A stretch of 64,000 nt of DNA from Dehalococcoidia bacterium (GCA_965205165.1 OZ242037.1:937619-1001618), one strand, 5' to 3'. Positions 5,058 through 24,842 are shown, counted from the first letter of the stretch. Notes: a model not told the origin generated them from the sequence alone. A program made the numbers and translations.

Positions 5058-5372
5058 ATGGATGCACTGCCCATCGATCTGTCTTGGAACCGGGCGACAA
5101 TGGCCGAACTCGCGGCGCATGATCTGACCGTCGCTGACGCATACGGCGTGTTCCAGAACCAGCCCGAGTTCTACGCGCAGCAACCTTCGCCTGAGATCGG
5201 ACGGCAGGGCACCTACCGCTACCGCCCTGAGCGGCTGATGATGATCGGCCCGACCAGATCGGGGCGCATGTTGAGCTTTATCCTTGAACTGCCGGATGCC
5301 GACCGGTTGTGCCATGTCGTGACCGGTTGGGATTCGACCCTGGAAGAGATCGAGGCCTATGACCAGACCTAA
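5058..5372 (+). CDS. BrnT-like (DUF497) ribonuclease toxin
   Basis: 104 aa. The pattern LSWNRATMAELAAHDLTVADAYGVF...ERLMMIGPTRSGRMLSFILE...DRLCHVVTGWDSTLEEIEAY follows the DUF497/BrnT consensus (F-WD..K...N..KHGV.F.EA..VF ... EER..AIG....GR.L.VV.......IRIISAR.A...E...Y). It overlaps the next ORF by 14 nt. Confidence 0.55.
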   Translation: MDALPIDLSWNRATMAELAAHDLTVADAYGVFQNQPEFYAQQPSPEIGRQGTYRYRPERLMMIGPTRSGRMLSFILELPDADRLCHVVTGWDSTLEEIEAYDQT

Positions 5373-5652
5373 CCCTGATGAGCGGCCGATCCACCCCGCA
5401 CGGGAAGAATTCGGCAGCATCAAGGACGCCGTTCGCATTGACGTCGAACTCACGGGCCCGCCGGCCGGCGAGTTCACGGTCCGTTTCGAAGGGGACCATC
5501 TGGAGCGCCTGCTGTACGGCATCCGCGAACTCGGCATCCAGCCGCTGTCGGAGTTCTTCCGCGACGCAGCACTCGCCGCCATCGACGTGCGGGAAGCAGA
5601 ACTGGCAGCCGCGAAGAAGGGCGCCGACGCAGCCGCCGGCGGCGCCGGCTGA
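5359..5652 (+). CDS. BrnA-like antitoxin (ribbon-helix-helix-like), cognate of the BrnT-like toxin
   Basis: 97 aa. Its start overlaps the upstream toxin. The FTVRFEGDHLERLLYGIRELGIQPLSEFFRDAAL segment resembles the strand-helix-helix of BrnA antitoxins. Toxin-first gene order is the hallmark of brnTA. Confidence 0.45.
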   Translation: MTRPNPDERPIHPAREEFGSIKDAVRIDVELTGPPAGEFTVRFEGDHLERLLYGIRELGIQPLSEFFRDAALAAIDVREAELAAAKKGADAAAGGAG

Positions 5653-10646: not shown

Positions 10647-12687
<2,041 letters not shown>

Positions 12688-12766
12688 GCTGTCGCCGGCG
12701 ATCTCCCAAGTGCGGAAGTGGAGCAGCGGTCGCTTCCGCTCCCCCGCGGCGGCCCGGCGCTCCGGG

Positions 12767-13057
12767 CTAGAAGTCGAAATCGTCGTCGCCGAAATCGAAG
12801 TCGTCGTGGCTGTGGCCGTGATCGTGGCCGTGCCCGCCCATGCCGCCCATCGCGCCCATGTCGAAATCGTCCATCCCGAAGTCGTCGCCGAACGAGCTGG
12901 AGGCCGCGCCGGTGTGGATGGCGACGCCGGCGCCGAAGATGCGGGAGCCGGAGCCGTCGCAATCGCCGCAGTCGGCTGTTGCGGGCGCCTGGCCCATTTT
13001 CGCGATCCGCTCGAAGGTTTTCGAGCAGGCCTCGCAGCGGTACTCGTAGATCGGCAC
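12767..13057 (-). CDS. FmdB-family zinc-ribbon regulatory protein
   Basis: GTG start gives VPIYEYRCEACSKTFE...CGDCDG.., the FmdB CxxC...CxxC zinc ribbon. It ends in an acidic/His-rich tail (HGHDHGHSHDDFDF). The track ORF 12767..13699 is an over-extension. Confidence 0.75.
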   Translation of the reverse strand: MPIYEYRCEACSKTFERIAKMGQAPATADCGDCDGSGSRIFGAGVAIHTGAASSSFGDDFGMDDFDMGAMGGMGGHGHDHGHSHDDFDFGDDDFDF

Positions 13058-13147
13058 GGCGCCCTCCCGTCCAGGCCCTTTCAGCGCGCATATCTTACTC
13101 CCGTGCGTTGCCCGCCCGTTGGCCCGCCCCTGGAGAGGAAGCCCGCC

Positions 13148-14440
13148 GTGCCCGACATCCGCGATTACTGCGACCGACTGTGGAACGGGGAGATCGACAC
13201 GGTGCGCGAAGCGCACCCGATCGGCGGGATGTGGAACGACCGCGAAACGGACGAGATCGCGGACGGGCTGCTCTACTACAAGTCGGTCTCTTCCGCGAAC
13301 ACCTTCGACGCCGGCGACGGGCTGGTGATGGTCGACACGGGCGGGGAGCGCGATGCGGAGAACATCCACGCCGGCGTCCGCCGCTGGCGGCCCGACGCGC
13401 CCCTGAGGGCGGCGATCTACTCGCACCACCACGTCGATCACACCTTCGGCGTCGGCCCGTTCGACGCGGAGGCGGGGACGCCGATCCCGGTCTACGCGCA
13501 CGAGGCGATCCCCGAGCACTTCGACCGCTACCTGCGCACCATCGGCTACAACACGGCGATCAACTCGCGCCAGTTCTTCCGCCCCGGCATGAGCGCCGAG
13601 TTCCGCCTCCCCTGGCCCGAGCAGTACCGCTACCCGGACGTGACCTTCCGCGACCGCCTCGATCTGCGGATCGGCGAGCTGACCTTCGAGCTGCACCACG
13701 CCCGCGGCGAGACCGAGGACGCGGTCTGGACCTGGGTGCCCGAACGCTCGGTGCTCTGCCCGGGCGACCTGTTCATCTGGGCCGTGCCCAACGCGGGCAA
13801 CCCGCAGAAGGCGCAGCGCTGGGTCGGCGAATGGGCGGCCGCGCTGCGCAAGATGGCATCACTGGGCGCGGAAACGATGCTGCCCGGCCACGGCTTCCCG
13901 ATCTTCGGCGCCGACCGCATCGCGCAGGCTCTGAACGACACGGCCGAGCTGCTGGAGTCGATCGAGAACCAGACGTTGGCGCTGATGAACGAGGGCTGTT
14001 CGCTCAACCGCATCCTGCACGAGGTCGAAATGCCCGCGCACCTGCTCGACAAGCCCTACCTGCGCTCGGCCTACGACCACCCGGAGTTCATCATCCACAC
14101 CGTCTGGCGCTACTTCGGCGGCTGGTACGAGGGCGAACCCGACCGCCTGATGCCCGCCCCGCGCGGCGCGGAAGCAGCGGAATGGGTCGCCCTCGCCGGC
14201 GGGATCGGCCCGGTCCTGGAGCGCGCCCGCGCCCTGCTCGACGCGGGCGATCTGGTCATGGCCAGCCACATCATCGAGGGCGCGGCCGCCGCCGGCCCCG
14301 CGAACGCCGAAACCCACGCGCTCCGCGCCGAGATCTACGACCGCCGCGCCGCCGCCCAAGATTCGAGCATGGCCCGCGGCATCTTCGCCTTCGCCGCCTC
14401 CAGCAGCCGCGAAGGCAAGCGCGACGCCTTCAGCGGCTAA
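13148..14440 (+). CDS. MBL-fold metallo-hydrolase, alkyl/aryl-sulfatase-like (N-terminal MBL plus dimerisation domain; no SCP2 tail)
   Basis: HHHVDHTFG and MLPGHGFPIFG are MBL motifs. PYLRSAYDHPEFIIHTVWRYFGGWYEGEP matches the alkyl-sulfatase dimerisation domain. Putative GTG start at 13148 within track ORF 12242..14440. Confidence 0.7.
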   Translation: MPDIRDYCDRLWNGEIDTVREAHPIGGMWNDRETDEIADGLLYYKSVSSANTFDAGDGLVMVDTGGERDAENIHAGVRRWRPDAPLRAAIYSHHHVDHTFGVGPFDAEAGTPIPVYAHEAIPEHFDRYLRTIGYNTAINSRQFFRPGMSAEFRLPWPEQYRYPDVTFRDRLDLRIGELTFELHHARGETEDAVWTWVPERSVLCPGDLFIWAVPNAGNPQKAQRWVGEWAAALRKMASLGAETMLPGHGFPIFGADRIAQALNDTAELLESIENQTLALMNEGCSLNRILHEVEMPAHLLDKPYLRSAYDHPEFIIHTVWRYFGGWYEGEPDRLMPAPRGAEAAEWVALAGGIGPVLERARALLDAGDLVMASHIIEGAAAAGPANAETHALRAEIYDRRAAAQDSSMARGIFAFAASSSREGKRDAFSG

Positions 14441-15948
14441 ATCCGCATCCGCCGATTCTCGTATCCGAGCGGCATCGGCAGGTCCGGCAACCTGCCGTCG
14501 AAGTAGTCCTCGATGCTCCAAATCTGGAGCTTGCGGTACTCGCGCCCCAGCACCTCCGTGAACCCGGCGGTGACCGCTTCTTCTTCCATCCCCGCGGTGA
14601 ACGACGCCGCGTCCATCACGGCGAATACGCCCAGATCGGCGCCGGCGTCGGCCATCGCGGCCTTGAAGGCGCGGACATCGCCGCGAGCGGTGCGGCCGGC
14701 TTTGACCTGCATGACGACCGTCCCGTATTCGGTCCTCGCGCCCTTGCCGCGCCCTTCGGATTTCACGTAGCGCATGCGGCCGTCTATTCCGCCGTCGCCG
14801 GTCTGCCGCTTGTTGGGGCGGAAGCCGGTGACCCGCGTGACCGCCCACGTCTCGAATTGGAATGGCTGCGCCGCGAGCAGGCGGGCCGACGCGAGATCCT
14901 CGGGCGCCCCGATCACATCCGCCTCGGCGCCCAGCGCCTGCATCCGTTCCTCGACCAAGCCGACGGCCAAGTGCGTGATGTCCACGCCGACCCAGCGGCG
15001 ATCGTTCTTCAGCGCCACGGCCATGGCGGTGCCGCAGCCGCAGAACGGGTCCAGCACCAAGTCCCCCTCGTTGGACGAAGCGAGGATGATCCGCTCCAAC
15101 AGCGCCTCCGGCTTCTGCGTGGGGTAGCTCAGCCGCTCTTTCGCCTGCGGATTGAGAATCGGGATCTCGAAGACGTCAAACGCGGGAGTTCCCTCGTGAT
15201 CGCGGTACACGACGCGGTCGTAGTCGTCGGGATCCACGTCGCCGCGCTCGACAGCCGCCTCGAACGTCTCGGCATCCTCGACGATGATCTGGCGCTTGCG
15301 CTCGCCACCGCTCTCGTAGGTGTTTGTGTTCCAGCCGCGCGCCATCGGCGCCCGGGTCGGCGAGGTGGGGACGTACAGCTGGTTGAACACGACATCGTCG
15401 GACCTTCCGTAGAACAGGATCACGTCGTGCATCCGCTGGAATCGCTTCGCGGCCGCCGCCCAGCGGCGGTAGAACCAAACGATCTCGTTGCGGAAGTTCC
15501 CCGCCCCGAACACCGCGTCCATCAGGATCTTGAGATAGTGGCTCGCGGTCGGGTCGCAGTGCAGGTAGATCGAGCCGCTCGGCTTGAGCACGCGGTGCAG
15601 CTCCGCGAGCCGGATCGCCATCATCGCCAGATACGCCGTCATCTGATTGGTGCCCAACGCGGACACGAGCGAGTCCAATAGCGCGCCCGCCCGGGGCGAC
15701 GGCGAATCATCCCGCAGCAACTCCTCGAGCGCGCGCTGCGACTCCGCACCCCAATGCCAAGTGTCGACGAACGCCTCGATCTGGGCTTGCGGAGCGCGCC
15801 CCGACTCATCCCGGAAGAGCACGTTGTAGGTGGCATTCGAGTTGAACGGCGGATCCAAGTAGACGAGATCGACCGATTCATCGGGAAAGTGCTCGCGCAG
15901 CACCTCCAAGTTGTTGCCGTAGAACAGCTTGCCATGCAGATCATCCAT
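14437..15948 (-). CDS. beta-class N4/N6 DNA methyltransferase fused to a C-terminal Mrr-type (PD-(D/E)xK) restriction-endonuclease catalytic domain
   Basis: 503 aa. Motif IV DPPFNS precedes motif I VLDPFCGCGTAM, the beta-class order. The C-terminal ~140 aa (GDGGIDGRMRY...VMQVKAG...VFAVMDA...KLQIWSIEDYFDG) matches Mrr_cat. Stop codons overlap with the sulfatase-like gene. The start lies 13 nt after the original TPK stop. Confidence 0.8.
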   Translation of the reverse strand: MDDLHGKLFYGNNLEVLREHFPDESVDLVYLDPPFNSNATYNVLFRDESGRAPQAQIEAFVDTWHWGAESQRALEELLRDDSPSPRAGALLDSLVSALGTNQMTAYLAMMAIRLAELHRVLKPSGSIYLHCDPTASHYLKILMDAVFGAGNFRNEIVWFYRRWAAAAKRFQRMHDVILFYGRSDDVVFNQLYVPTSPTRAPMARGWNTNTYESGGERKRQIIVEDAETFEAAVERGDVDPDDYDRVVYRDHEGTPAFDVFEIPILNPQAKERLSYPTQKPEALLERIILASSNEGDLVLDPFCGCGTAMAVALKNDRRWVGVDITHLAVGLVEERMQALGAEADVIGAPEDLASARLLAAQPFQFETWAVTRVTGFRPNKRQTGDGGIDGRMRYVKSEGRGKGARTEYGTVVMQVKAGRTARGDVRAFKAAMADAGADLGVFAVMDAASFTAGMEEEAVTAGFTEVLGREYRKLQIWSIEDYFDGRLPDLPMPLGYENRRMRI

Positions 15949-15963
15949 CAGCTGAGGCTATCG

Positions 15964-16031
15964 GGGCAGCCGCTGCTGGCGGAAGTGGTGGGTGGCGAAC
16001 GCCTTGCCGGTCCCGATGCGGATCATCGCGC
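15964..16031. repeat. 68-bp direct repeat copy A (orphan copy of the TPK 3' coding tail); 67/68 identical to 17314..17381
   Basis: gggcagccgc(t/c)gctggcggaagtggtgggtggcgaacgccttgccggtcccgatgcggatcatcgcgc occurs twice. In the TPK frame it reads ...AMIRIGTGKAFATHHFRQQRLPR*. Confidence 0.9.
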
Positions 16032-16034
16032 AGC

Positions 16035-16066
16035 GCGAAGGCAAGCGCGACGCCCTCAGCGGTTAA
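16035..16066. repeat. 32-bp copy (2 mismatches) of the sulfatase-like gene's 3' end including its stop codon (original at 14409..14440)
   Basis: gcgaaggcaagcgcgacgcc(t/c)tcagcgg(c/t)taa. The copy sits immediately 3' of repeat copy A and 10 nt upstream of the 254-aa ORF. Confidence 0.85.
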
Positions 16067-16075
16067 CGTGAGGGC

Positions 16076-16840
16076 ATGGCGATAGTCGACCTGACGCTCG
16101 GACTCGAAGGCGATCCCCCGCCGGAGGTTTACGTGCGCGCAGCGCAGTGCCTCGACGAACTCGCGTCTGCACTCGCCGCCGAACAATCGTCCGTGCAGGC
16201 GGCGGTTTGGCACATGTCCGGCGCAGGGACGGGGCGCGGCGCGGTCAGCATCGCCGGCGAGTGCGCCAGCGACGAGCTGGCCGACGGGATTGCTCGCCGC
16301 TACTTGGCGATCGGGCGGATCCTTGCCCGCCAAGCGGCGGCGGAATGCTCCGAGCCTGTCCGCGGCACCGCTTCGGCGATGGCGCAACTGCTTCAAGGCG
16401 GGGTGGCGGCATTGCGCTTCGAAACCGCCTCCGGAACGGAATGGGCACCGCGGCCGATGCCTGAACCCCGCGAGGTTCCGGAGTGCGTGACCGGCTGGCG
16501 GGCGGCGCAAGCTGCACCGGTCGGCGTCCGCTTCGCCGTGCTCGACGAAATCTCCAGCCAGTCCGTCTCCTGCTATCTCGATCAACCCGACCAGCACCTG
16601 CATGAAGCGCTTCGCGACAGGCGCGTCACGGTGCACGGGCTGGTCACCTACCAGGCGAACGGCGAGTGCGCCGCCGTGGTGCGGGCGATCACGAAAATCG
16701 AACTCGATCTGAGCGCCCAAGACGACGCTTGGGGGCAATCCATGCAGATCGGCGCGGGAACGCCCGCCGGCCCCGGCTCCGTCACTTGGTTCCTCGAGGA
16801 GCGCGAACGCGCCAGGGAACGGTTCTGGCGTGAACGGTGA
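16076..16840 (+). CDS. hypothetical protein (254 aa), translationally coupled to the downstream PIN gene
   Basis: ATG preceded by gaggg. Third-position GC is coding-like. It ends (…WFLEERERARERFWRER*) 11 nt inside the PIN gene start. The antisense track ORF 15941..16738 is Arg-rich junk. Confidence 0.55.
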   Translation: MAIVDLTLGLEGDPPPEVYVRAAQCLDELASALAAEQSSVQAAVWHMSGAGTGRGAVSIAGECASDELADGIARRYLAIGRILARQAAAECSEPVRGTASAMAQLLQGGVAALRFETASGTEWAPRPMPEPREVPECVTGWRAAQAAPVGVRFAVLDEISSQSVSCYLDQPDQHLHEALRDRRVTVHGLVTYQANGECAAVVRAITKIELDLSAQDDAWGQSMQIGAGTPAGPGSVTWFLEERERARERFWRER

Positions 16841-17303
16841 GTCCTTCGACTATTGGGACGCATCGGTGTTCATCCACCGGGCCAGCGCCAATCCCGATCA
16901 TCTCCCCGCAATCGAGCGGACATTGGGGCGTTACGCGCCCGGCGAGCGCCGCATCGCCACATCGGCACTGACCCTCGCGGAGGTCGCGTTCACTGCCTCG
17001 GAGATCGTGCGCGGCGCGCGCAACGAAGTCACATTCGCGCCCTCCGCCGAACAGGAGCAGCGGATCGAGCGGATGCTGTCCAACGCCGCGGAAGTCCGCA
17101 TCGTCCCGCTCGATGAGGAGATCGGACGCCGCGCCCGCGCACTCGTCCGACTCGCGCTTAGCGAAAGCCGCCGCCTCGATCCTCCCGACGCGGTCCACCT
17201 GGCCACTGCAGAGGCGGTCGGAGCAACCGCCGTCTATACCTACGACGGCAAGTGGGCGGCTTGGGCGCGAACGCTCAACGTGAAGATCGGGAGGCCGGAG
17301 TAA
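16830..17303 (+). CDS. PIN-domain ribonuclease (VapC-like toxin)
   Basis: GTG start. The four acidic PIN residues are present: DASVFI, LAEV, DAVHLATA, TYDG. Its 3' end overlaps the TPK 3' end convergently by 29 nt. Confidence 0.75.
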   Translation: MNGESFDYWDASVFIHRASANPDHLPAIERTLGRYAPGERRIATSALTLAEVAFTASEIVRGARNEVTFAPSAEQEQRIERMLSNAAEVRIVPLDEEIGRRARALVRLALSESRRLDPPDAVHLATAEAVGATAVYTYDGKWAAWARTLNVKIGRPE

Positions 17304-17976
17304 TCCCCGCCCAGGGCAGCCGCCGCTGGCGGAAGTGGTGGGTGGCGAACGCCTTGCCGGTCCCGATGCGGATCATCGCGCGGTCGTTGATCAGTTCGTT
17401 GCTGATGCCTTGGGCGCGGCCGCGTTCGAGCGTTGCGTTCGAGAGCGACCACTTGAGGCCGACGGTTTCGACGCCTTCGATGCGGTCGGTGATCGGGATG
17501 ATGCCCGCGTAGTCGCCCGGCGCGCCGTGGAAATGGGTTTCGCGCACGCCGTCGCCGTGCAGGACGGTGATCGCGGTCCAGCCGTCCACGGCCCAGGTCG
17601 GGATGCCGCGCAGGCGGTCGCCGGCGAGCAGTTCGAGGTTGCCGAGCTCGTGGTCGAGGCGGTCGCCGCCGAAGACGCCGAGCGCGATTAGGGAGGTCGC
17701 GCCGCGGGCCAGCGCTTCTGCAATGGCGACATCGGCGTCGGTGCGCTGCTGCGGGGCGGGATGCGGGACGATGGCGGCGCCGGCCGCGCGGTGATCGGCC
17801 AGTTCGTCCGGGCTGAGCGAGTCGAAGTCGCCGATCAGCACGTGCGGGGCTATGCCCAGCGCGGCGAGGCGGCGCGCGCCGCCGTCGGCCGCGACGATCA
17901 AGCCGGCCCCGTCGAGCGCGGAGCGGACGAGCGCCGAGTCGTCGATCCCGCCGCCCAGGGCGACGACGGCCTGCAT
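17275..17976 (-). CDS. thiamine pyrophosphokinase
   Basis: MQAVVALGGGIDD...LIVAADGGARRL...HVLIGDFDS matches the TPK catalytic and thiamine-binding domains. The last 12 codons are encoded by sequence outside repeat copy B, so the C-terminus differs from the orphan copy. Confidence 0.8.
   Translation of the reverse strand: MQAVVALGGGIDDSALVRSALDGAGLIVAADGGARRLAALGIAPHVLIGDFDSLSPDELADHRAAGAAIVPHPAPQQRTDADVAIAEALARGATSLIALGVFGGDRLDHELGNLELLAGDRLRGIPTWAVDGWTAITVLHGDGVRETHFHGAPGDYAGIIPITDRIEGVETVGLKWSLSNATLERGRAQGISNELINDRAMIRIGTGKAFATHHFRQRRLPWAGITPASRSSR
17314..17381. repeat. 68-bp direct repeat copy B (inside the functional TPK gene)
   Basis: Identical to 15964..16031 except for one T/C difference. 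Confidence 0.9.
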
Positions 17977-17994
17977 CGGCGCGGGGGCGCGGCG

Positions 17995-19206
17995 CTAGTC
18001 GGCCGTAGCGGGCTCCGCGGCCCGCTCGGCCGCGCCGTTGAGCGCGGCGACGCCCTTGGCGAACTCCTCCGGCATCTCCTTGCCGCCGTCCGCGAACGCC
18101 CGCGCCATCGCCTTCGTGCCCGCGCCGAAGATGTCCAGCTGCCGATCCTCCACGAAATCGCGCGATTCCACGATGCGGTCGATCTGCCCTTGGAAGCGCG
18201 GCGCGACGTAGCGCATGAAGAGCTCGTAGGAGCGTCGCGTGGCGTCGCTCGACGCCCATTCATGCGCCATCCCCATCAGCCCGCCGACGCCGCCGGAGCG
18301 CTCGTGCAGCGCCTCGACCTGCTCGATCACGTCGTCGACGCCGCCGACCAGCACCTCGTTGCGCTCGATCGCCTCCTCAATCGTCGGGGCCTGGTTGGCG
18401 AAGAGGCCGCCGCGCCGGCCCTCGTCGCGCACGTCGCCGATGTAGGCGCGGCCCTTGTAGCCCTCCGCCACGTCGGCGATCGCCTGCTCGCGCGTCTCGG
18501 CGACGTGGATCGGCACGACGGCCCGCCAGTCGGCGCGATCGGCGGCGTGCCCGTTCTCCGCGGCCGCCTCCGCGTACCAGTCCCAGACCCGGGTCAGCCC
18601 CTCCGGGTCCGAGGTGCCGGCGACGGAGAGCATGCCGGCGCCGAACTTGCCGGCCAGCTGCGGGCCGGAGGGCGTGAGGATCACGGCGACGGCCAGTTCC
18701 GGGTGCGGGTCGGAGAACCAGGCCATCTGCAGCCGCGCCTCGGTCAGCGAGAACCAGTCCGTCTCCATCGTGACCGGCTCCGGGCTGGTCGCCAGCTGCA
18801 CGATCGCGTCGAAGCCCTCGTGCATGCGGCGGCGCTGCTCCTCGGGCGGGATGCCCATCTGCACCGCATCCGAGGTGAGCGCGCCGGGGCCGACGCCGAG
18901 CATCGCCCGCCCGCGGGTCATGTGGTCGAGCTGCAGCAGATCGTCGGCGATCATCAGCGGGTGGTGGTAGGGGATCGAGACGACGCCGGTGCCGAGCCGG
19001 ATGTGCCTGGTGCGCTGCGCGGCCGCGGCGATGAAGATCATCGGGTTCGAGATCAGCTCGCGCGCGAACGAGTGGTGCTCGCCGATCCAAGCCTCGTCGT
19101 AGCCGAGATCGTCGAGCAGCTCGATCAGCTCCAGATCGCGCTGGAGCGCCAGCGTGGGGTGCTCGCCGACCCGGTGGAAGGGCGCGAGGAAGATGCCGAA
19201 CTTCAT
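17995..19206 (-). CDS. LLM-class flavin/F420-dependent oxidoreductase (luciferase-like monooxygenase)
   Basis: MKFGIFLAPFH...LGYDEAWIGEHH... is the TIM-barrel LLM family. Start taken at the internal ATG at 19206. Confidence 0.8.
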   Translation of the reverse strand: MKFGIFLAPFHRVGEHPTLALQRDLELIELLDDLGYDEAWIGEHHSFARELISNPMIFIAAAAQRTRHIRLGTGVVSIPYHHPLMIADDLLQLDHMTRGRAMLGVGPGALTSDAVQMGIPPEEQRRRMHEGFDAIVQLATSPEPVTMETDWFSLTEARLQMAWFSDPHPELAVAVILTPSGPQLAGKFGAGMLSVAGTSDPEGLTRVWDWYAEAAAENGHAADRADWRAVVPIHVAETREQAIADVAEGYKGRAYIGDVRDEGRRGGLFANQAPTIEEAIERNEVLVGGVDDVIEQVEALHERSGGVGGLMGMAHEWASSDATRRSYELFMRYVAPRFQGQIDRIVESRDFVEDRQLDIFGAGTKAMARAFADGGKEMPEEFAKGVAALNGAAERAAEPATAD

Positions 19207-19397
19207 CTTGCGGGGTCGCCAGGACATTGCGCTGCTCCAGTTCACGCGGCCGCCGCGCGGCCGCAGTCGAGGGTAACGGGAGCACCGCGCTCCGCGCCGG
19301 GAAACGCGCCGCCCGACGAGGGCGTTCCGATTCTGTTAGTTTCGGGCGAAACATCGGAGCAGCCGCCCGTTCGGCGGGCGGGTTGGGAGCGAGCACG

Positions 19398-21107
19398 ATG
19401 AGCAGGCGCGAAATGTGGGACCGGATCCGCGGCGATCGGCTGTCGAGGCGCTCGCTGCTGGCCGCATCGGGACGGGCCGGATTGGGCGCGGCCGGGCTGG
19501 CGCTGGTCGGCTGCGGCGATGATGACGACGATGACGCGCAACAGCAGGCGGCGGCGCAGCAGTCATCGGACGCGCAAGCGTCCGGGACCGCGGCGGCGGA
19601 TCAGCAGGAACAGCAGCAGCAGGCCCAGCCGGCCGCGGCCGCGGGCGGGCCGCAGCGCGGCGGCGTGCTGCGGATCGGCTCCGACCTTTCGCTCACCACC
19701 TACCGGGCCCCCTACCTCTCCTCCTCGGCCCACATCCCGCTCTACATCCCCTTCTGGGACACCCTGACCAAGTACTCGCCCAACGGGCTCGACCCGCAGC
19801 CCCACCTCGCCGAGTCATGGGAGTTCAACGACGACCAGACGATGCTCGAGGTGAAGCTGCGCCCCGGCCTCGAGTTCCACAACGGCAAGTCGATGACCGC
19901 GACCGAGGTCAAGAAGAGCCTCGAGGCGATGGACGACGAGGGCACCGCCAACAACCAGGTCAAGGGCATCTTCACCAAGTACGTCGAGAGCGTCGATGCG
20001 ATCGACGACACGACGCTGCAATTCAACCTCGCCTGGAGCGGCACGCTGATCTTCGACGTGCTCAACTACGCGCAGATCCACGACGCCGATTCGATCGCGA
20101 AGCTGGACGACTATGCGGAGCTGAACGGCAGCGGGCCGTTCAAGTTCGACCCGACCGCCTACCGCGTGGACGAGTTCTCGCGCGGCGAGCGCTTCGAGAA
20201 CTTCTACGACCCGGCCCTGCTGGACGGCGTCGAGCTGCACGCCTTCTCCGACGCGGCGGCGATGTCGCTGGCGCTCAACGCGGGCGAGATCGACCTCACC
20301 AACCGGCTGCCCAAGCAGGACTACGACCGCTACAACGCCGACCCCGATTTCGAGGTCGTGGTCGCGCCACCCACGCTCGCGATCTGGGTGCTCGGCATGG
20401 TCATCCCCAACGAGAACGGCGGCCACGAGGCGTTCGACAACCCCAAGGTGCGGCAGGCGCTCTACCGCATCGTCGACCGCAAGCGGATCGCCGAGGAGAC
20501 CTTCGCCGGCCTCGCCCAGCCCAAGAACATCCTTTGGCCCTCCTTCTCGCCCGGCTACGACGCCGCCCGCGACCGCGACTACTTCGACCCCGAGGAGGCG
20601 GCCCGGCTGCTCGAGGAGGCCGGCTACGGCCCCGGCGAGCTGACCATCGAGCTGGCCCACAGCGGCGGCGAGGCGAACGAGATCTCGCAGGTGATCCAAG
20701 CCGGCGCGGCCGAGGCGGGGATCAACATCAACATCCAGCTGCTCGAAGCCGCCGTCGCGCGCGAACGCTTCCTCGGCGCCGGCAACGAGGCCTACCTCTC
20801 CTCCTACGCCTTCTTCGCCCTGCACCCGCAGACCCTGCCGGTGATGAACTTCCAGATGCGCATCCCCAACTCCTGCGCCTACGGCCCCGACTACTACCAG
20901 GAGCTGATCGACAACTTCGGCACCGCCGACACCGACGCGCGCCGCAACGCGCTGCTGGAAGAGTTCAACACGATCCTCGACAACGAGCCGTGGATCGCGC
21001 CGATCGTCACCCGCAGCGACGTCTGGGCCTGGGCCTCCAAGGTCAACGGCGTCGAATTCGACGTGCTCAGCATCCCCTCGATGCAGAAGATCTGGATGGA
21101 CGCGTAG
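19398..21107 (+). CDS. ABC transporter substrate-binding protein, family 5 (Opp/Dpp/Nik-like); Tat signal plus lipobox
   Basis: MSRREMWDRIRGDRLSRRSLLAASG...LVGCG gives a twin-arginine motif and a Cys lipobox. A Gln/Ala-rich linker follows, then the SBP_bac_5 body. Confidence 0.85.
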   Translation: MSRREMWDRIRGDRLSRRSLLAASGRAGLGAAGLALVGCGDDDDDDAQQQAAAQQSSDAQASGTAAADQQEQQQQAQPAAAAGGPQRGGVLRIGSDLSLTTYRAPYLSSSAHIPLYIPFWDTLTKYSPNGLDPQPHLAESWEFNDDQTMLEVKLRPGLEFHNGKSMTATEVKKSLEAMDDEGTANNQVKGIFTKYVESVDAIDDTTLQFNLAWSGTLIFDVLNYAQIHDADSIAKLDDYAELNGSGPFKFDPTAYRVDEFSRGERFENFYDPALLDGVELHAFSDAAAMSLALNAGEIDLTNRLPKQDYDRYNADPDFEVVVAPPTLAIWVLGMVIPNENGGHEAFDNPKVRQALYRIVDRKRIAEETFAGLAQPKNILWPSFSPGYDAARDRDYFDPEEAARLLEEAGYGPGELTIELAHSGGEANEISQVIQAGAAEAGININIQLLEAAVARERFLGAGNEAYLSSYAFFALHPQTLPVMNFQMRIPNSCAYGPDYYQELIDNFGTADTDARRNALLEEFNTILDNEPWIAPIVTRSDVWAWASKVNGVEFDVLSIPSMQKIWMDA

Positions 21108-21144
21108 CGCCGCCGCAGCGTCCGGCCGGAGAAGGGAACGACCG

Positions 21145-22887
21145 ATGAGCGATCGCGGCTACTGGGAGCGGATCCGAACCGAGCGGATGGGCCGCCGATC
21201 GCTGATGGGCGCGGGCGCCCGCGCCGCCGTCGGCGCGGCCGGCATGGCCCTCGTCGGCTGCGGCAGCGACGACGACCAGCAGCAGGCGCAACAGGCCCAG
21301 CCCGAGCCCGCGGCGGCCGCGCAGCCGCAGCAACAGCAGGAGCAACCCGCTCCGCAAGAGCAGCAGGCCGAACCGCAGACGGCCCCTTCCGGCGCCATCG
21401 CCTACAAGGACGACGGCGTCCGCAAGAAGGGCGGCGTCCTCCGCGCCGGCTGGGCCAACGGCTCGCCCGCGATCTACCTCGCCCCATACGCCGCCTCGCC
21501 CGACACCGTCTTCTACCCGGCCCTCTGGGACACCCTGACCAAGTACGACTCCGAGGGCCTCAACCCGCAGCCGCACCTCGCCGAATCCTGGGAGTTCAAC
21601 GACGACCAGACGATGCTGATGGTCAAACTGCGCCCCGGCCTCGAATTCCACAACGGCAAGCCGATGACCGCCGAGGAGGTGCGCAAGAGCCTCGAGCGGA
21701 TGGACGACGAGGACGTGGCCAACAGCCAGGTCCGCTCGATCTACAACAAGTACGTCAGCGAGGTCACCGCCGTCGACGACACGACCCTGCAGTTCGACCT
21801 CGCCTGGCCCGGCACCACGATCTTCGACGTGTTCCAGTGGGCGCAGATCCACGACGCAGACGACATCGAGGGTCTCGAAGGGCTGGTGCGCGTCAATGGC
21901 AGCGGGCCCTTCAAGTGGGACCCCGACGCCTACGAGGTGGACGTCTACTCGCGCGCCGACCGTTTCGAGAACTTCTACGAGCCGGCCAACCTCGACGCGA
22001 TCGAGTGGCACATCTTCCAAGATTCGGATTCCATGTCGCTGGCGCTGCAGAACGGCGAGATCGACCTCACCCACCATCTGCCCAAGGCGTTTCACGCGGG
22101 CCTGAACCCCGATCCCGACTACAACCTGCAGCTGGCCCCGCCGACCGGCTCGATCTGGGTGCTCGGCATGGTCGGCACCGGGCGCGGCGGCGGCCATCCG
22201 ATGATGGACGACCCCACCGTGCGGCGGGCGCTCTACCGCTGCATCGACCGCAAGCGGATCACCGAGGAGCTGTTCGAGGGGCTCGCCTCCGTCAAGAACG
22301 TGGTCTGGCCCTCCTTCTCGCCCGCCTACGACGAATCGCTCGACGTCGACTACTTCGACTTGGACGAGGCCAAGCGGCTGATCACCGAAGCGGGCTACCC
22401 CGACGGCACCCCGACCCTTCCCATCGCCTGCCAGGCGGCGCGCGAGGAGGGCATCCAGATCGCCCAGATCATCCAATCCGACGCCGCCAAGGCCGGAATC
22501 AACGTCGAGCCGCAGCGGATCGAGAGCGCGACCTGGATCGAGCAGTTCCTGGCCGGCACCCACGAGGCGATGTACGTCTCCTTCTACGGCTTCTACGCGC
22601 TCCACCCGCAGTCGCTGCCGGTGATGAACTTCCAGATGCGCATCCCCAACTCCTGCGCCTATGAGACGCCCCACTACCAGGCCATGATCGACGGCTGGCC
22701 GACCGCGGACTCGGAGGCCAAGCGCCAGCAGCTGCTGGACGACTTCAACAAGATCCTGGACGAGGAGCCGTGGGTCTCGCCGATCTCGACGACCGTCCAG
22801 ATCTGGGCGATGCAGTCCAACGTCAAGAACCTCTGGTACGACATCACCGGCATCCCGCGCATGCACCACGTCTACTTCGACGGCTAG
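21145..22887 (+). CDS. ABC transporter substrate-binding protein, family 5 (paralogue of the upstream SBP); Tat signal plus lipobox
   Basis: MSDRGYWERIRTERMGRRSLMGAG...LVGCG, followed by a Q-rich linker. Long colinear similarity to the 19398..21107 protein (e.g. PQPHLAESWEFNDDQTML, MNFQMRIPNSCAY). Confidence 0.85.
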   Translation: MSDRGYWERIRTERMGRRSLMGAGARAAVGAAGMALVGCGSDDDQQQAQQAQPEPAAAAQPQQQQEQPAPQEQQAEPQTAPSGAIAYKDDGVRKKGGVLRAGWANGSPAIYLAPYAASPDTVFYPALWDTLTKYDSEGLNPQPHLAESWEFNDDQTMLMVKLRPGLEFHNGKPMTAEEVRKSLERMDDEDVANSQVRSIYNKYVSEVTAVDDTTLQFDLAWPGTTIFDVFQWAQIHDADDIEGLEGLVRVNGSGPFKWDPDAYEVDVYSRADRFENFYEPANLDAIEWHIFQDSDSMSLALQNGEIDLTHHLPKAFHAGLNPDPDYNLQLAPPTGSIWVLGMVGTGRGGGHPMMDDPTVRRALYRCIDRKRITEELFEGLASVKNVVWPSFSPAYDESLDVDYFDLDEAKRLITEAGYPDGTPTLPIACQAAREEGIQIAQIIQSDAAKAGINVEPQRIESATWIEQFLAGTHEAMYVSFYGFYALHPQSLPVMNFQMRIPNSCAYETPHYQAMIDGWPTADSEAKRQQLLDDFNKILDEEPWVSPISTTVQIWAMQSNVKNLWYDITGIPRMHHVYFDG

Positions 22888-22943
22888 CGGGCAACGGGCC
22901 GGCGGAAACCTGAACGGCGAGGATCAACGGAAAGCGGCGGCGC

Positions 22944-23900
22944 GTGGGCAGGTACCTGATCCGCCGCTTCCTCGAAGGCGTGCTCGTCGTCTTCCTGGCC
23001 AGCATCGTCATCTTCCTGATCATCCGCCTGATCCCCGGCGACCCCGCGCAGCAGCTCGCCGGCGAGGATGCCACGCTCGAGGACGTCGAGCGCGTCCGCG
23101 AGCAGCTCGGCCTCAACGACCCGTTCCTGGCCCAGTACTGGAACTGGATCTCCGGCGCCGTCCAGCTCGACTTCGGGCGCTCCTTCACCAAGCGGGTCGA
23201 GGTGCGCGACCTGGTCGCGCAGTCGTTCCCGCCCACGATCGAACTGGCCGTGGCCGCCTACCTCTTCGCGCTGATCGTCGGCGTCCCGCTCGGCATCGCC
23301 GCCGCCGTCTGGGCCAAGAAGCCGCCCGATTACGGCGCGAGCATCTTCAACATCCTCACGCTGGGCATCCCCAATTTCGTGCTCGGCATCATCCTGCTCT
23401 GGGTCTTCGCGGTCGAGCTGGACTGGTTCCCCGTGTCGGGCCGGGTCAGCGTGTTCGATGATCCGCTGCAGGGCCTGCACCGGCTGGTGCTGCCGATGAT
23501 CGCGGCCGGCGCGACCATCGCCGCCGTGCTGGCCCGCTTCGTGCGCACCTCGGTGGCCGAGGCGCTGGCGCAGGACTACGTGCGCACCGCCCGCGCCAAG
23601 GGCCTGCGCTCCAGCCGCGTCGTGCTCTCGCACGCGCTGCGCAACGCGCTGATCCCGATCGTCACCATCGCCGCGCTCCAGATCGGCAACCTGCTCGCCG
23701 GCGCGATCGTGGTCGAGATCGTCTTCACCCGGCCCGGCTTCGGCAACCTGATCATCGACGGCATCGTCGGCCGCGACTACCTCGTGATCCAGGCGATGCT
23801 CGCCATCCTCGTCTTCCTCTTCGTCGCCGCCAACACCGCGGCCGACATCACCTACGGCTACCTCGACCCCCGCATCCGCGTCTCCGGGCTGCGCTCATGA
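22944..23900 (+). CDS. ABC transporter permease (DppB/OppB-like)
   Basis: 318 aa, six TM segments, BPD_transp_1 features. Confidence 0.85.
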   Translation: MGRYLIRRFLEGVLVVFLASIVIFLIIRLIPGDPAQQLAGEDATLEDVERVREQLGLNDPFLAQYWNWISGAVQLDFGRSFTKRVEVRDLVAQSFPPTIELAVAAYLFALIVGVPLGIAAAVWAKKPPDYGASIFNILTLGIPNFVLGIILLWVFAVELDWFPVSGRVSVFDDPLQGLHRLVLPMIAAGATIAAVLARFVRTSVAEALAQDYVRTARAKGLRSSRVVLSHALRNALIPIVTIAALQIGNLLAGAIVVEIVFTRPGFGNLIIDGIVGRDYLVIQAMLAILVFLFVAANTAADITYGYLDPRIRVSGLRS

Positions 23901-24793
23901 GCGCCTTCGATCCCCCCGTCGCCCGCCCCTGGCTGCGCCGCATGCGCGATCAGTCGCTGACCGTGGACGCCTTCTACCGCACGGTCACCAACCCGCAGGG
24001 GTTCATCGGCGTGGTGATCTTCGGCGGGCTGATCCTGCTGGCGATCTTCGCCGACCTGATCGCGCCCTACGGCGAAGCCGAGCAGATCCGCGGCGCGCGC
24101 CTGCTCTCGCCCACCTCCGAGTACTGGTTCGGCACCGACGACCTCAACCGCGACATGTTCAGCCGCATCCTCTTCGGCCTGCGCATCTCGCTCTACGTCT
24201 CCGTCGCCGGCGTGCTCGGCGGCGGCGCGGCCGGCACCATCATCGGCTTCCTCGCGGGCTACGCCGGCGGCTGGCTCGAAACGATCCTGATGCGCCTGGT
24301 CGACACCCTGCTCGCCTTCCCCTTCCTGCTGCTCGGCATCGCCGTGCTCGCGATCCTGGGCACCGGCACCGAGCAGGTCGCGCTGGCGCTGGGCATCGCC
24401 AACGTGCCCGTCTTCGCCCGCATCGCCCGCGCCCAGCTGCTGACCGAGAAGGAGCGGGACTACGTGCTCGCCGCCCGCGCCATCGGGGCGGCGCCGGGCC
24501 GGATCATCTGGCGCCACATCGCCACCAACGCGCTGCCGCCGCTGCTGGTGCAGGGCGCGCTGGCCATGGCCTTCGCCGTGATCGCCGAAGCCACGCTCAG
24601 CTTCCTCGGTCTCGGCGCGTCCCCGCCGACGCCGACGCTGGGCATCATCCTCGCCGACGGCCGCCGCTGGCTCTTCGCCGGCGCCTGGTGGTTCGTGCTC
24701 TTCCCCACCTTGGGCCTCAGCCTGATCCTGCTCTCCCTCAACTTCGTCGCCGACTCCGTAGTCGAAGCCATTGACCCCCACCGCCGCCACTGA
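23897..24793 (+). CDS. ABC transporter permease (DppC/OppC-like)
   Basis: 298 aa. 4-nt overlap with the upstream permease. Confidence 0.85.
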   Translation: MSAFDPPVARPWLRRMRDQSLTVDAFYRTVTNPQGFIGVVIFGGLILLAIFADLIAPYGEAEQIRGARLLSPTSEYWFGTDDLNRDMFSRILFGLRISLYVSVAGVLGGGAAGTIIGFLAGYAGGWLETILMRLVDTLLAFPFLLLGIAVLAILGTGTEQVALALGIANVPVFARIARAQLLTEKERDYVLAARAIGAAPGRIIWRHIATNALPPLLVQGALAMAFAVIAEATLSFLGLGASPPTPTLGIILADGRRWLFAGAWWFVLFPTLGLSLILLSLNFVADSVVEAIDPHRRH

Positions 24794-24842
24794 GCCGCGG
24801 CGGTAGAATCACGATGGCGGCCCGACCGCCGGAGGAACCGCC

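What the first reader, a model, noticed from the sequence alone, without database searches (positions are those of the whole stretch)
14409..17381. Variable cassette slot between convergent sulfatase-like and thiamine-pyrophosphokinase genes: two cargo cassettes, each flanked by duplicated gene-tail repeats
Two repeat pairs frame two unrelated cassettes.
- **Sulfatase tail S.** The last 32 nt of the MBL/sulfatase-like gene including its stop (14409..14440) recur with 2 mismatches at 16035..16066.
- **TPK tail T.** A 68-bp block encoding the TPK C-terminus occurs at 15964..16031, as an orphan copy ending in its own stop (...FRQQRLPR*). It occurs again 67/68 identical at 17314..17381, inside the intact TPK gene.
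- **Layout.** The locus reads S | MTase-Mrr fusion | T – S' | 254-aa protein + PIN toxin | T'–TPK. Both cassettes are therefore bounded by the same left (S) and right (T) chromosomal gene ends, and a chimeric T–S' junction lies between them.
- **Interpretation.** This is what one expects if the MTase cassette and the PIN cassette are alternative occupants of the same slot in different lineages. Here they would have been combined by recombination through the conserved flanking gene ends, a hotspot for exchangeable defence or toxin cargo.
- **Side effect on TPK.** The TPK now ends with 12 codons supplied by cassette DNA (…FRQRRLPWAGITPASRSSR). These overlap the PIN gene 3' end by 29 nt.
Basis: seen in the sequence. 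Interest (0 to 1): 0.8.

Follow-up and report, generated by a model that had tools for sequence, protein, structure and literature searches.

The report
Two alternative gene cassettes stacked together
Between two conserved convergent genes of an uncultured Dehalococcoidia bacterium, two cassettes that occupy the same slot singly in sister strains (a methylase-nuclease fusion, and a PIN-toxin pair) have been joined in tandem by an illegitimate join that left duplicated gene tails; it is a clean natural example of a known rearrangement type, not a new kind of element.

Summary
T/T' match 67/68. S/S' match 31/33, and S' is really 37 nt with one base lost in this genome.

The main interpretation is supported. 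Related Dehalococcoidia assemblies show every predicted state of the SULF–TPK slot:
- **Empty:** L003, L004 and others.
- **MTase-Mrr only:** L082, L001, L035.
- **P254+PIN only:** L052–L056.
- **The same composite:** L049, L050.

The T|S' joint has the same breakpoint (2-nt GC microhomology) in three independent assemblies, so it is inherited and not an assembly artefact. A second composite (L085/L086) has a different joint: 111-nt T with 6-nt microhomology.

The joint cannot be made by homologous recombination alone. It needs one illegitimate join plus one homologous exchange in or near the TPK tail.

The TPK extension is not caused by the cassette. It is a window-specific stop-loss (TAG>TGG at 17312).

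No integrase, transposase or nearby tRNA gene is present.

This matches the known "insertion with long target duplication" and displacement by homology-facilitated illegitimate recombination (HFIR), so it is a new member of a known kind.

Side interest: P254 is hypervariable. It belongs to an uncharacterised ~250-aa family with a predicted ferredoxin-like plus OB fold.

The parts
13148..14440 (+). Left anchor gene: MBL-fold / alkyl-sulfatase-like protein (SULF), 430 aa
   Evidence: Pfam Lactamase_B plus Alkyl_sulf_dimr. The synteny GroEL-SULF-[slot]-TPK-LLM is conserved in about 40 Dehalococcoidia species representatives.
14404..14440 (+). S: native 37-nt tail of SULF including the TAA stop
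   Evidence: Repeat D7. The 37-nt extent is defined by L049/L050, where S' matches S over 37 nt.
14437..15948 (-). Cassette A: beta-class DNA methyltransferase fused to an Mrr-like PD-QxK nuclease domain, 503 aa
   Evidence: Pfam N6_N4_Mtase 4.5e-43 and Mrr_cat 3.9e-6. PADLOC MTase_II/III. Nearest solved relatives include CcrM, MboIIA and RsrI. dN/dS is about 0.1 against L049, L050 and L082. It is the sole slot occupant in L082, L001 and L035.
15960..16031 (-). Orphan TPK tail: A-type stop codon (15960-15962) plus the 68-nt T
   Evidence: 67/68 identical to T'. Colinear with the uninterrupted TPK 3' end of the A-only strains L082 and L001, up to 16031 exactly.
16030..16033 (.). Illegitimate T|S' joint (GC microhomology; one C of S' lost in the window)
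   Evidence: The same breakpoint...GATCATCGCGC|AGC(C)GCGAAGG..., occurs in the window, L049 and L050. A different joint occurs in L085/L086.
16030..16066 (+). S': orphan copy of the SULF tail with a TAA stop, followed by the same 9-nt spacer before P254 as in B-only strains
16076..16840 (+). Cassette B gene 1: P254, a hypervariable protein of an uncharacterised ~250-aa family
   Evidence: No Pfam, PADLOC or NCBIfam hit. 10 close homologues, with context recovered for 8, all in this slot. 496 distant cluster representatives. AF2 pLDDT 87, showing a ferredoxin-like domain, an OB fold and a C-terminal helix.
16830..17303 (+). Cassette B gene 2: PIN-domain nuclease, 157 aa, overlapping P254 by 11 nt
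   Evidence: Pfam PIN 8.8e-14. The acidic residues D10, E51, D120 and D139 are visible in the translation. dN/dS is 0.1-0.2.
17312..17312 (-). Stop-loss substitution in TPK (TAG>TGG) that extends TPK by 12 codons over the PIN 3' end
   Evidence: The window has CCA where L049, L050 and all B-only strains have CTA or TTA.
17314..17381 (-). T': the same 68 nt inside the functional TPK gene
   Evidence: Concerted with the orphan T within each genome.
17275..17976 (-). Right anchor gene: thiamine pyrophosphokinase (233 aa here, 221-222 aa elsewhere)
   Evidence: Pfam TPK_catalytic plus TPK_B1_binding. Homologues are 221 aa (ending ...LP, B-type) or 222 aa (ending ...LPR, A-type).

Best explanation
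The interval between the convergent SULF and TPK genes is a variable slot. In this lineage two alternative single-cassette alleles exist.
- Allele A is MTase-Mrr, downstream of and co-oriented with TPK.
- Allele B is P254+PIN, downstream of and co-oriented with SULF.

The window carries both, head to tail. An A-type chromosome acquired the B allele together with the last 37 nt of SULF.

Two steps are inferred:
1. One illegitimate join between a point 68 nt inside the TPK tail and a point 37 nt before the SULF stop, at a GC microhomology.
2. One homologous exchange in or immediately next to the 68-nt TPK tail.

This could have happened in either of two ways. A circularised S'-B-T' fragment could have integrated through T (Campbell-type). 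Alternatively, a linear fragment could have entered by homology-facilitated illegitimate recombination (HFIR).

[quoted passage not shown] It leaves both flanking genes and both cassettes intact.

Shown:
- The four allelic states exist.
- Each half is colinear with its single-cassette allele.
- The joint lies at microhomology and is inherited.
- Both cassettes remain under purifying selection.
- The 68-nt repeats homogenise each other.

Inferred:
- The order of the steps and the nature of the intermediate.
- That the repeats allow clean loss of either cassette.
- That selection favoured stacking because both modules are addictive or defensive.
For: - **Slot variation across species.** Synteny is conserved. 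The slot is empty or overlapping, or holds about six or more unrelated cargo types.
- **Strain-level states.** A-only: L082, L001 and L035. B-only: L052-L056. Composite: window, L049, L050/L051.
- **Colinearity.** blastn against L001 gives window 12747-16031 = L001 9585-12885 and window 17314-24802 = L001 12818-20338. L001's single 68-nt tail therefore matches both T and T'. The A-only L082 sequence from the MTase start through T into TPK equals the window up to 16031. B-only strains show SULF stop + 9 nt + P254 ATG, just as after S'.
- **Joint.** The breakpoint is identical in three assemblies from different samples whose flanking genes differ by about 1-3% nt. It has only 2-nt microhomology, which is incompatible with homologous recombination or a k-mer overlap.
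- **Second joint.** L085/L086 carries T = 111 nt with GCCGCG microhomology.
- **No mobility genes.** There is no integrase or transposase in the 20.8-kb L049 locus, about 10 kb either side of P254. The nearest tRNA gene in the window is about 38 kb away.
- **Both flanks resemble the A-only strain.** SULF is 98.1% nt identical to L082 and 94.5% to B-only L052. TPK is 95.6% to L082 and 92.6-93.6% to the B-only strains. This fits a short imported segment.
- **Concerted evolution.** T and T' share TCC in the window, TTG in L049 and CTG in L050 at the same positions.
- **Selection.** dN/dS is about 0.1 for MTase and 0.1 for PIN between composites that diverged after the joint formed.
- **Precedents.** Furuta 2010 (PMC2853133). 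Kirchberger 2017 (PMC5361080).
Against: - No reads were available, so the joint in this particular assembly is supported only by its presence in other assemblies.
- The SNP pattern across TPK is mosaic and does not reveal a clean crossover point. The circular-intermediate and HFIR routes therefore cannot be separated, and later recombination may have erased the signal.
- Present-day A-only L082 lies inside the composite clade. It could be a secondary deletion (T x T') rather than the ancestral state, so the direction of individual transitions is not resolved.
- The two joint types could also descend from one longer ancestral joint by two deletions.
- No sigma-70-like promoter was found in the 127-nt joint, so how the two cassettes are transcribed in the composite is unexplained.
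Confidence: 0.8

Rival explanations
1. The composite is the ancestral state of this clade. The A-only and B-only alleles seen today are deletion derivatives made by recombination between T/T' or S/S'.
For: - The A-only strain L082 is as close to the window as the other composites are (SULF 98.1% nt).
- The 68-nt repeats demonstrably interact through gene conversion.
- Deletion between the repeats would regenerate perfect single-cassette alleles.
Against: - The composite itself carries an orphan TPK tail next to A and an orphan SULF tail next to B. It can therefore only have arisen from chromosomes in which A touched TPK and B touched SULF, so single-cassette alleles must be older.
- A-only also occurs in the much more distant L001 and L035, with MTase 91% and 76% aa identical, and these show no trace of tail duplications.
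Confidence: 0.1
2. A short ancestral S-T interval was duplicated in tandem. Two unrelated cassettes then inserted independently, one into each copy.
For: The interleaved order S..T..S'..T' is the signature of a tandem duplication.
Against: - It requires two later insertions at exactly the same S|T boundary.
- Both halves match pre-existing single-cassette alleles base for base up to the joint.
- No genome shows an S-T-S'-T' duplication without cargo.
Confidence: 0.03
3. P254-PIN is a site-specific mobile element whose attachment site is the TPK 3' end, with the 68-nt repeats acting as attL and attR.
For: Direct repeats at a gene's 3' end that restore the gene resemble integrase-mediated insertion (discussed in PMC2853133).
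Against: - No integrase or transposase lies in the 20.8-kb L049 locus, about 10 kb either side of P254, and the nearest tRNA gene in the window is about 38 kb away.
- The insert carries a piece of the opposite flanking gene, which a site-specific element would not.
- All close P254 homologues with recoverable context sit in this one slot.
- A second joint at a different TPK position exists.
Confidence: 0.03
4. Assembly artefact: two co-existing strain haplotypes (A and B) were concatenated by the assembler.
For: The source is a metagenome-assembled genome, and both alleles circulate in the same kind of samples.
Against: - The identical joint is present in two further assemblies from other samples (ERZ25070167, ERZ23496018) that differ from the window by about 1-3% nt in the flanking genes. 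A third (SRR18248232, L051) begins inside S' and is otherwise the same as L050.
- The joint shares only 2 nt, far below any assembler overlap.
- S/S' and T/T' differ by real substitutions.
- The window's contig is 2.85 Mb.
Confidence: 0.02

Closest known systems
Insertion with long target duplication of restriction-modification gene units (Nobusato et al. 2000; Furuta, Abe & Kobayashi 2010, PMC2853133)
   Same: - A small gene unit without any mobility gene.
- It is flanked by direct repeats longer than 30 bp.
- The repeats are a single-copy target sequence in the uninserted allele, often at a gene's 3' end.
- One of the two units here is an RM-like gene.
- The repeats are highly similar to each other.
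   Different: - The inserted unit brings a fragment of the opposite flanking gene (S'). This shows it was lifted from the same slot of another chromosome, so the event stacks two alleles rather than inserting foreign DNA at a new site.
- Seen from the T repeats, the inserted cargo is a PIN pair, not an RM system.
Displacement arrays made by homology-facilitated illegitimate recombination (HFIR): T6SS effector-immunity arrays in Vibrio cholerae (Kirchberger 2017, PMC5361080) and Rhs C-terminal displacement
   Same: - An incoming allele is added next to the resident one instead of replacing it.
- One side uses homology and the other an illegitimate join.
- Orphaned gene-end fragments are left behind.
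- Closely related strains with simple replacement also exist.
   Different: - In those arrays the old toxin part is displaced and silenced, and only immunity genes stay useful. Here both cassettes and both flanking genes stay intact.
- Here the slot lies between two convergent housekeeping genes, not inside a toxin operon.
Integration hotspots and defence islands between conserved core genes (general concept; from my own knowledge, not retrieved here)
   Same: A fixed position between conserved genes that holds different accessory cargo in different lineages, including RM-like and toxin-antitoxin-like genes.
   Different: - The slot is very small, holding one or two genes.
- Most occupants in other species have no recognisable defence function.
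- No mobile-element genes are associated.
Resistance of chromosomal RM systems to allelic replacement (Handa 2001 and Sadykov 2003, as summarised in PMC3874152)
   Same: It provides a selective reason why an RM-carrying allele would be kept alongside, rather than replaced by, an incoming allele. In those experiments survivors kept the RM and carried rearrangements.
   Different: It is not tested here. It is unknown whether this single-chain MTase-Mrr restricts unmethylated DNA or causes post-segregational killing.
VapBC-type type II toxin-antitoxin pairs
   Same: A PIN-domain gene with all four acidic residues. It is preceded by, and overlaps by 11 nt, an upstream partner whose C-terminal helix is invariant.
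   Different: The partner is 254 aa and has no known antitoxin DNA-binding domain. It is predicted to be a ferredoxin-like domain plus an OB fold, and it is hypervariable in its central part.

Membership tests
Insertion with long target duplication (criteria of Furuta 2010, PMC2853133) | Target duplication longer than 30 bp that is single-copy in the uninserted allele | tested here: met
   T/T' is 68 nt and single-copy in L082 and L001. S/S' is 37 nt and single-copy in the B-only strains.
Insertion with long target duplication (criteria of Furuta 2010, PMC2853133) | Insert shorter than 20 kb with no mobility-related gene | tested here: met
   The extra DNA is 1350 nt relative to L001. No integrase or transposase is among the called genes of the 20.8-kb L049 locus, about 10 kb either side of P254.
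Insertion with long target duplication (criteria of Furuta 2010, PMC2853133) | The inserted sequence contains both R and M gene homologues | tested here: inconclusive
   Seen from the S repeats, the insert is the MTase-Mrr fusion, with M and a putative R domain in one ORF. Seen from the T repeats, the insert is P254+PIN, which is not an RM system.
Site-specific integrative element / integron cassette | Cognate tyrosine or serine recombinase, and an att or attC site (often a tRNA gene) | tested here: not met
   No recombinase gene lies in the 20.8-kb L049 locus. The nearest tRNA gene in the window is about 38 kb away. Two different joints exist. attC-type structure was not specifically searched for.
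HFIR product | One recombinant joint in homology, the other at a short (0-10 nt) GC-rich microhomology between non-homologous sequences | tested here: met
   The T|S' joints lie at GC (2 nt) and GCCGCG (6 nt). The right side is continuous homology through T' into TPK.
HFIR product | Uptake of linear donor DNA (natural transformation or conjugation) as the source | not testable with these tools
   The organism is uncultured, and competence was not assessed.
Restriction-modification system (single-chain MTase-nuclease) | Methyltransferase catalytic and SAM-binding motifs | tested here: met
   N6_N4_Mtase 4.5e-43. DPPF (LDPPFNSN) and FxGxG (DPFCGCGT) are visible in the translation. The order is beta-class, as in CcrM, RsrI and MboIIA.
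Restriction-modification system (single-chain MTase-nuclease) | A nuclease that cleaves DNA lacking the cognate methylation | not testable with these tools
   Only a domain match is available: Mrr_cat at 3.9e-6, with a GDGGIDG...QVK motif. Whether it is methylation-sensitive, methylation-dependent or inactive is unknown.
Type II toxin-antitoxin, VapBC type | PIN toxin with conserved acidic active-site residues | tested here: met
   Pfam PIN 8.8e-14. D10, E51, D120 and D139 are present.
Type II toxin-antitoxin, VapBC type | Small upstream antitoxin with a known DNA-binding fold (AbrB, RHH, HTH, PHD) | tested here: not met
   P254 is 254 aa with no Pfam, NCBIfam or PADLOC match. The predicted fold is ferredoxin-like plus OB.
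Type II toxin-antitoxin, VapBC type | Toxicity of the PIN protein neutralised by its partner | not testable with these tools
   This needs expression experiments.

The most novel reading that the evidence does not exclude
Stacking is not an accident but the selected outcome of a contest between two addictive modules for one slot. Cells in which the incoming P254-PIN allele simply replaces the resident MTase-Mrr allele are killed by loss of methylation. Only rare illegitimate recombinants that keep both survive. This would explain why composites with two different joints exist. It could also explain why both donor-side breakpoints fall within 6 nt of each other in the SULF tail, possibly at a restriction-generated DNA end. 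If so, this would be natural-population evidence for resistance to replacement by a chromosomal RM system.
Probability: 0.15. Interest if true: 0.6.

Novelty: new member of a known kind. Interest (0 to 1): 0.4.

Why it matters
This locus captures, in one uncultured lineage, all stages of cassette turnover at a very small hotspot: empty, allele A, allele B and A+B. The breakpoints are resolved to the base. That shows how accessory or defence cargo can accumulate without any mobile-element machinery. One microhomology join plus short homology is enough, and the resulting gene-tail repeats keep interacting afterwards.

It extends "insertion with long target duplication" and HFIR-type displacement to Chloroflexota from what appear to be sponge-associated samples.

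It also flags a testable new PIN partner family (P254). Its allele diversity (45-87% aa identity next to about 97-100% identical neighbouring genes) suggests a specificity or immunity role.

Tried and rejected
- **JGI metagenome scan** with the SULF C-terminal half returned only relatives at 75% identity or less, so it said nothing about strain-level states.
- **Exact look-ups** of the window's own TPK and P254 found no contig.
- **SNP pattern across TPK** was examined for a donor/recipient crossover. It is mosaic, so the circular-intermediate and HFIR routes could not be separated.
- **Promoter and terminator scan** of 14300-17500 found no sigma-70-like promoter in the joint and no terminator between the cassettes. 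Expression in the composite stays unexplained.
- **AF2 of P254** with the 10 close homologues gave pLDDT 58 and was discarded. The 137-sequence alignment gave pLDDT 87.
- **P254 family context.** tblastn of a distant member against plasmids found nothing. I therefore could not test whether the wider P254 family is generally paired with PIN.
- **Other species' slots** were searched for duplicated gene tails and none were found. Their cargo has no Pfam match.
- **Considered and rejected:** an integron-like or integrase-driven cassette, an assembly chimera, and tandem duplication followed by two insertions (see rival explanations).

Full report
**Observation.** The two repeat pairs are real.
- T (15964-16031) and T' (17314-17381) are 67/68 identical.
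- S (14408-14440) and S' (16034-16066) are 31/33 identical.
- The longest exact direct repeat in 12500-19000 is 57 nt. In 50 shuffles the mean was 13 and the maximum 16.
- Neither repeat has another copy in the 64-kb window.

**Gene content.** Pfam confirms the gene calls:
- 13148-14440 (+): metallo-beta-lactamase (MBL) plus alkyl-sulfatase dimerisation protein, called SULF here.
- 14437-15948 (-): 503-aa N6_N4 DNA methyltransferase with a C-terminal Mrr_cat domain.
- 16076-16840 (+): 254-aa protein without any family, called P254 here.
- 16830-17303 (+): PIN protein.
- 17275-17976 (-): thiamine pyrophosphokinase (TPK).
- 17995-19245 (-): a luciferase-like monooxygenase (LLM).

**Organism and slot variation across species.** A scan of one genome per species found about 40 Dehalococcoidia/Chloroflexota MAGs with the same synteny, GroEL-SULF-[slot]-TPK-LLM. 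Some isolate names suggest sponge metagenomes; that is my reading of the names, not a tool result.
- The distance between the SULF stop and the TPK stop ranges from overlapping gene ends (L003, L004, L010, L020) to 1.8 kb.
- The larger slots hold at least six unrelated cargo types. These are the MTase-Mrr fusion (L001, L035), a ~340-aa family (L002, L008, L043), a ~440-460-aa family (L005, L009, L023), a 405-aa protein (L034), small ORFs (L015, L024, L032) and P254+PIN.
- The non-MTase cargoes have no Pfam match.
- None of these slots contains duplicated gene tails.
- Outside the P254-PIN allele, the main cargo ORFs lie on the TPK strand. P254-PIN lies on the SULF strand. Each cassette therefore sits at the 3' end of one of the two convergent operons.

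**Strain-level states.** P254 has only ten close homologues among 5.8 billion clustered proteins. Context was recovered for eight of them, and every one lies in this slot. Close relatives of the window (GroEL, SULF and LLM 95-100% aa identical) show three of the four states. The fourth, the empty slot, occurs only in more distant species.
- **B-only (SULF-P254-PIN-TPK):** L052, L053/L054, L055, L056. L084 is probably B-only as well.
- **A-only (SULF-MTase-TPK):** L082. Its TPK (P0011) is 96% identical to the window's and ends ...FRQQRLPR, exactly like the orphan T. L083 is probably A-only. L001 and L035 are more distant A-only genomes.
- **Composite (SULF-MTase-P254-PIN-TPK):** L049 and L050, with L051 as a partial contig.

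A-type TPK ends ...LPR* (222 aa). B-type TPK ends ...LP* (221 aa).

**Colinearity and the joint.**
- Against L001, window 12747-16031 aligns to L001 9585-12885, and window 17314-24802 aligns to L001 12818-20338. L001's single 68-nt TPK tail therefore matches both T and T'. The window has 1350 extra nt: S', P254, PIN and a second T.
- The A-only strain L082 matches the window from the MTase start codon through T. It then continues into TPK where the window switches to S'.
- After S', the window has the same 9-nt spacer and P254 start as B-only strains have after the true SULF stop.
- In L049 and L050 the joint reads ...GATCATCGCGC|AGCCGCGAAGG.... T contributes up to ...CGCGC and SULF contributes from GCAGCCGCG..., so only GC is shared. 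S' is 37 nt there, and the window has since lost one C.
- Two nucleotides of shared sequence cannot support homologous recombination or an assembler overlap.
- The identical breakpoint occurs in three assemblies from different samples whose flanking genes differ by about 1-3% nt. The joint is therefore an inherited structural variant that predates their divergence.

**A second joint.** L085/L086 are also composite: MTase 97.8% aa identical, then an orphan TPK tail, then a SULF tail, then P254 and PIN.
- The joint differs. The orphan T is 111 nt, S' is about 35 nt, and the shared microhomology is GCCGCG.
- Neither joint can be derived from the other by a simple deletion. The window type keeps one more SULF-derived base, and the L085 type keeps 43 more TPK-derived bases.
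- The simplest reading is two independent stacking events. One longer ancestral joint trimmed twice is not excluded.
- The two SULF-side breakpoints lie within 6 nt of each other.

**What happened afterwards.**
1. *Concerted evolution of the 68-nt repeats.* At positions 48-50 of the repeat, both copies carry TCC in the window, TTG in L049 and CTG in L050. At position 31, both copies carry G in the window and T in L049. The orphan copies share one origin, so parallel changes in the non-coding orphan and the coding copy indicate gene conversion.
2. *Stop loss.* The window's TPK lost its stop (TAG>TGG at 17312). All other B-adjacent TPK genes keep it. The 12-codon extension over PIN is thus a private mutation, not a product of the insertion.
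3. *PIN decay.* PIN is broken in L050/L051: tblastn splits it in two, with 56 nt spanning 22 query residues, i.e. about 10 nt missing.
4. *Continued purifying selection.* Among composites, dN/dS is about 0.1 for MTase. For PIN it is 0.10 against L049 and higher (0.39) against L050, where PIN is broken.
5. *P254 is different.* It is 45-87% aa identical among strains whose neighbouring genes are about 97-100% identical. The divergence is concentrated in 16200-16700, where the window is 69% nt identical to L049 in 16300-16400 against 98-99% around it. dS is raised as well as dN, with dN/dS 0.23-0.40. L085 combines a 67%-identical P254 with a PIN N-terminus that is 100% identical. Old P254 alleles are therefore being shuffled within the cassette.

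**Mechanism.** Two things are shown: two pre-existing single-cassette alleles, and a microhomology joint between the TPK tail and the SULF tail.

The inferred route is one illegitimate join plus one homologous exchange. Two routes give the observed product.
- *Campbell-type route:* a donor fragment S'-B-T' is circularised at the GC microhomology and integrates through the 68-nt T.
- *Linear route:* a donor fragment is anchored by homology in TPK and joined illegitimately at its other end. This is homology-facilitated illegitimate recombination (HFIR).

Both flanks of the window resemble the A-only strain more than the B-only strains.
- SULF is 98.1% nt identical to L082 and 94.5% to L052.
- TPK beyond T' is 95.6% nt identical to L082 and 92.6-93.6% to the B-only strains.
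- Directly right of T', the window follows L082.

This fits a recipient of the A type and an imported segment ending within or right next to T'. That slightly favours the circular route, but later recombination could have produced the same picture.

No integrase or transposase is among the genes of the 20.8-kb L049 locus, about 10 kb either side of P254. The nearest tRNA gene in the window is about 38 kb away.

The repeats should also allow precise loss of either cassette. T x T' would give A-only, and S x S' would give B-only. This is inferred, not observed.

**Cargo.**
- *MTase-Mrr.* It has beta-class MTase motifs (DPPF early, FxGxG late) and related solved relatives (CcrM, RsrI, MboIIA). 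It also has an Mrr-type GDGGIDG...QVK nuclease motif. It is plausibly a single-chain RM-like enzyme, but its nuclease specificity is unknown.
- *PIN.* It keeps the four acidic residues D10, E51, D120 and D139.
- *P254.* It overlaps PIN by 11 nt. Its N-terminus and its C-terminal helix (WFLEERERARERFWRE) are invariant, and the middle is variable.
- *The wider P254 family.* A profile search found 496 distant cluster representatives of similar length. The ten tested had no credible Pfam match; one had a single sub-threshold hit.
- *Working hypothesis (inferred).* P254 is a nucleic-acid-binding partner or antitoxin of PIN, and its variable region sets specificity.

**Comparison with known systems.**
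- The structure meets the operational criteria for "insertion with long target duplication" described for RM units: no mobility genes, an insert under 20 kb, and a duplication over 30 bp that is single-copy in the uninserted allele (PMC2853133).
- It also resembles displacement arrays attributed to HFIR in Vibrio T6SS clusters and Rhs loci (PMC5361080).
- What is particular here is that the insert carries a piece of the opposite flanking gene, proving it came from the same slot. In addition, both cassettes and both flanking genes stay intact, and all intermediate states plus two joints are visible.
- Chromosomal RM systems are reported to resist allelic replacement (PMC3874152). That offers an untested selective reason for stacking rather than replacement.

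**Verdict.**
- An illegitimate join is required.
- The TPK extension is an independent stop-loss.
- The "defence" nature of the slot is only partly shown.

This is a new, unusually well-resolved member of a known kind of rearrangement, of moderate interest. The uncharacterised, hypervariable P254-PIN pair is the most promising lead.

Noticed in passing
L085:826-993 and L086:1-140: A second composite (MTase, orphan TPK tail, SULF tail, P254, PIN) with a different joint: the orphan T is 111 nt, S' is about 35 nt, and the microhomology is GCCGCG. Its SULF-side breakpoint lies within 6 nt of the window-type breakpoint.
   Followed up: partly
window 16200-16700 (central part of P254): A hypervariable patch. 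The window is 69-92% nt identical to L049 here, against about 97-100% in the flanking genes. P254 alleles are 45-87% aa identical among strains with near-identical neighbours. dS is elevated as well as dN, which suggests old alleles shuffled by recombination.
   Followed up: partly
window 16076-16840: P254 belongs to an uncharacterised ~250-aa family with 496 cluster representatives at E <= 1e-3 and no credible Pfam match. AF2 (pLDDT 87) predicts a ferredoxin/RRM-like domain, an SSB-like OB fold and an invariant charged C-terminal helix. Whether the wider family is generally paired with PIN could not be checked.
   Followed up: partly
window 17312: A TPK stop codon TAG>TGG substitution, private to this genome, extends TPK from 221 to 233 aa across the PIN 3' end.
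   Followed up: yes
L050:4874-5334 and L051:795-1255: PIN is disrupted by a deletion of about 10 nt (frameshift) in this composite lineage, while P254 stays intact.
   Followed up: partly
window 15964-16031 vs 17314-17381; L049:9888-9955 vs 11239-11306; L050:4007-4074 vs 5348-5415: The non-coding orphan T and the coding T' share lineage-specific variants within each genome (TCC / TTG / CTG at positions 48-50). This indicates gene conversion between repeats only 68 nt long.
   Followed up: yes
L007:8561-9862 and L008:8852-9733: Some species carry a second SULF paralogue (65-66% aa) in tandem directly upstream of the slot-adjacent copy.
   Followed up: no
L018:1-1860 and L042:5375-7289: In two species the TPK-LLM pair lies upstream of GroEL in the opposite orientation. 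The SULF-TPK adjacency is broken there.
   Followed up: no
L084:1-1299: A strain whose SULF tail is identical over its last 33 residues is followed by a P254 allele only 45% identical, called as a 395-aa ORF. The long C-terminus looks like read-through into the PIN region in another frame.
   Followed up: no
window 15948-16076: In the composite the two cassettes are divergent from the 127-nt joint. Each is cut off from the operon it follows in the single-cassette allele. No sigma-70-like promoter or terminator was predicted, so read-through across the other cassette's antisense strand is possible.
   Followed up: partly
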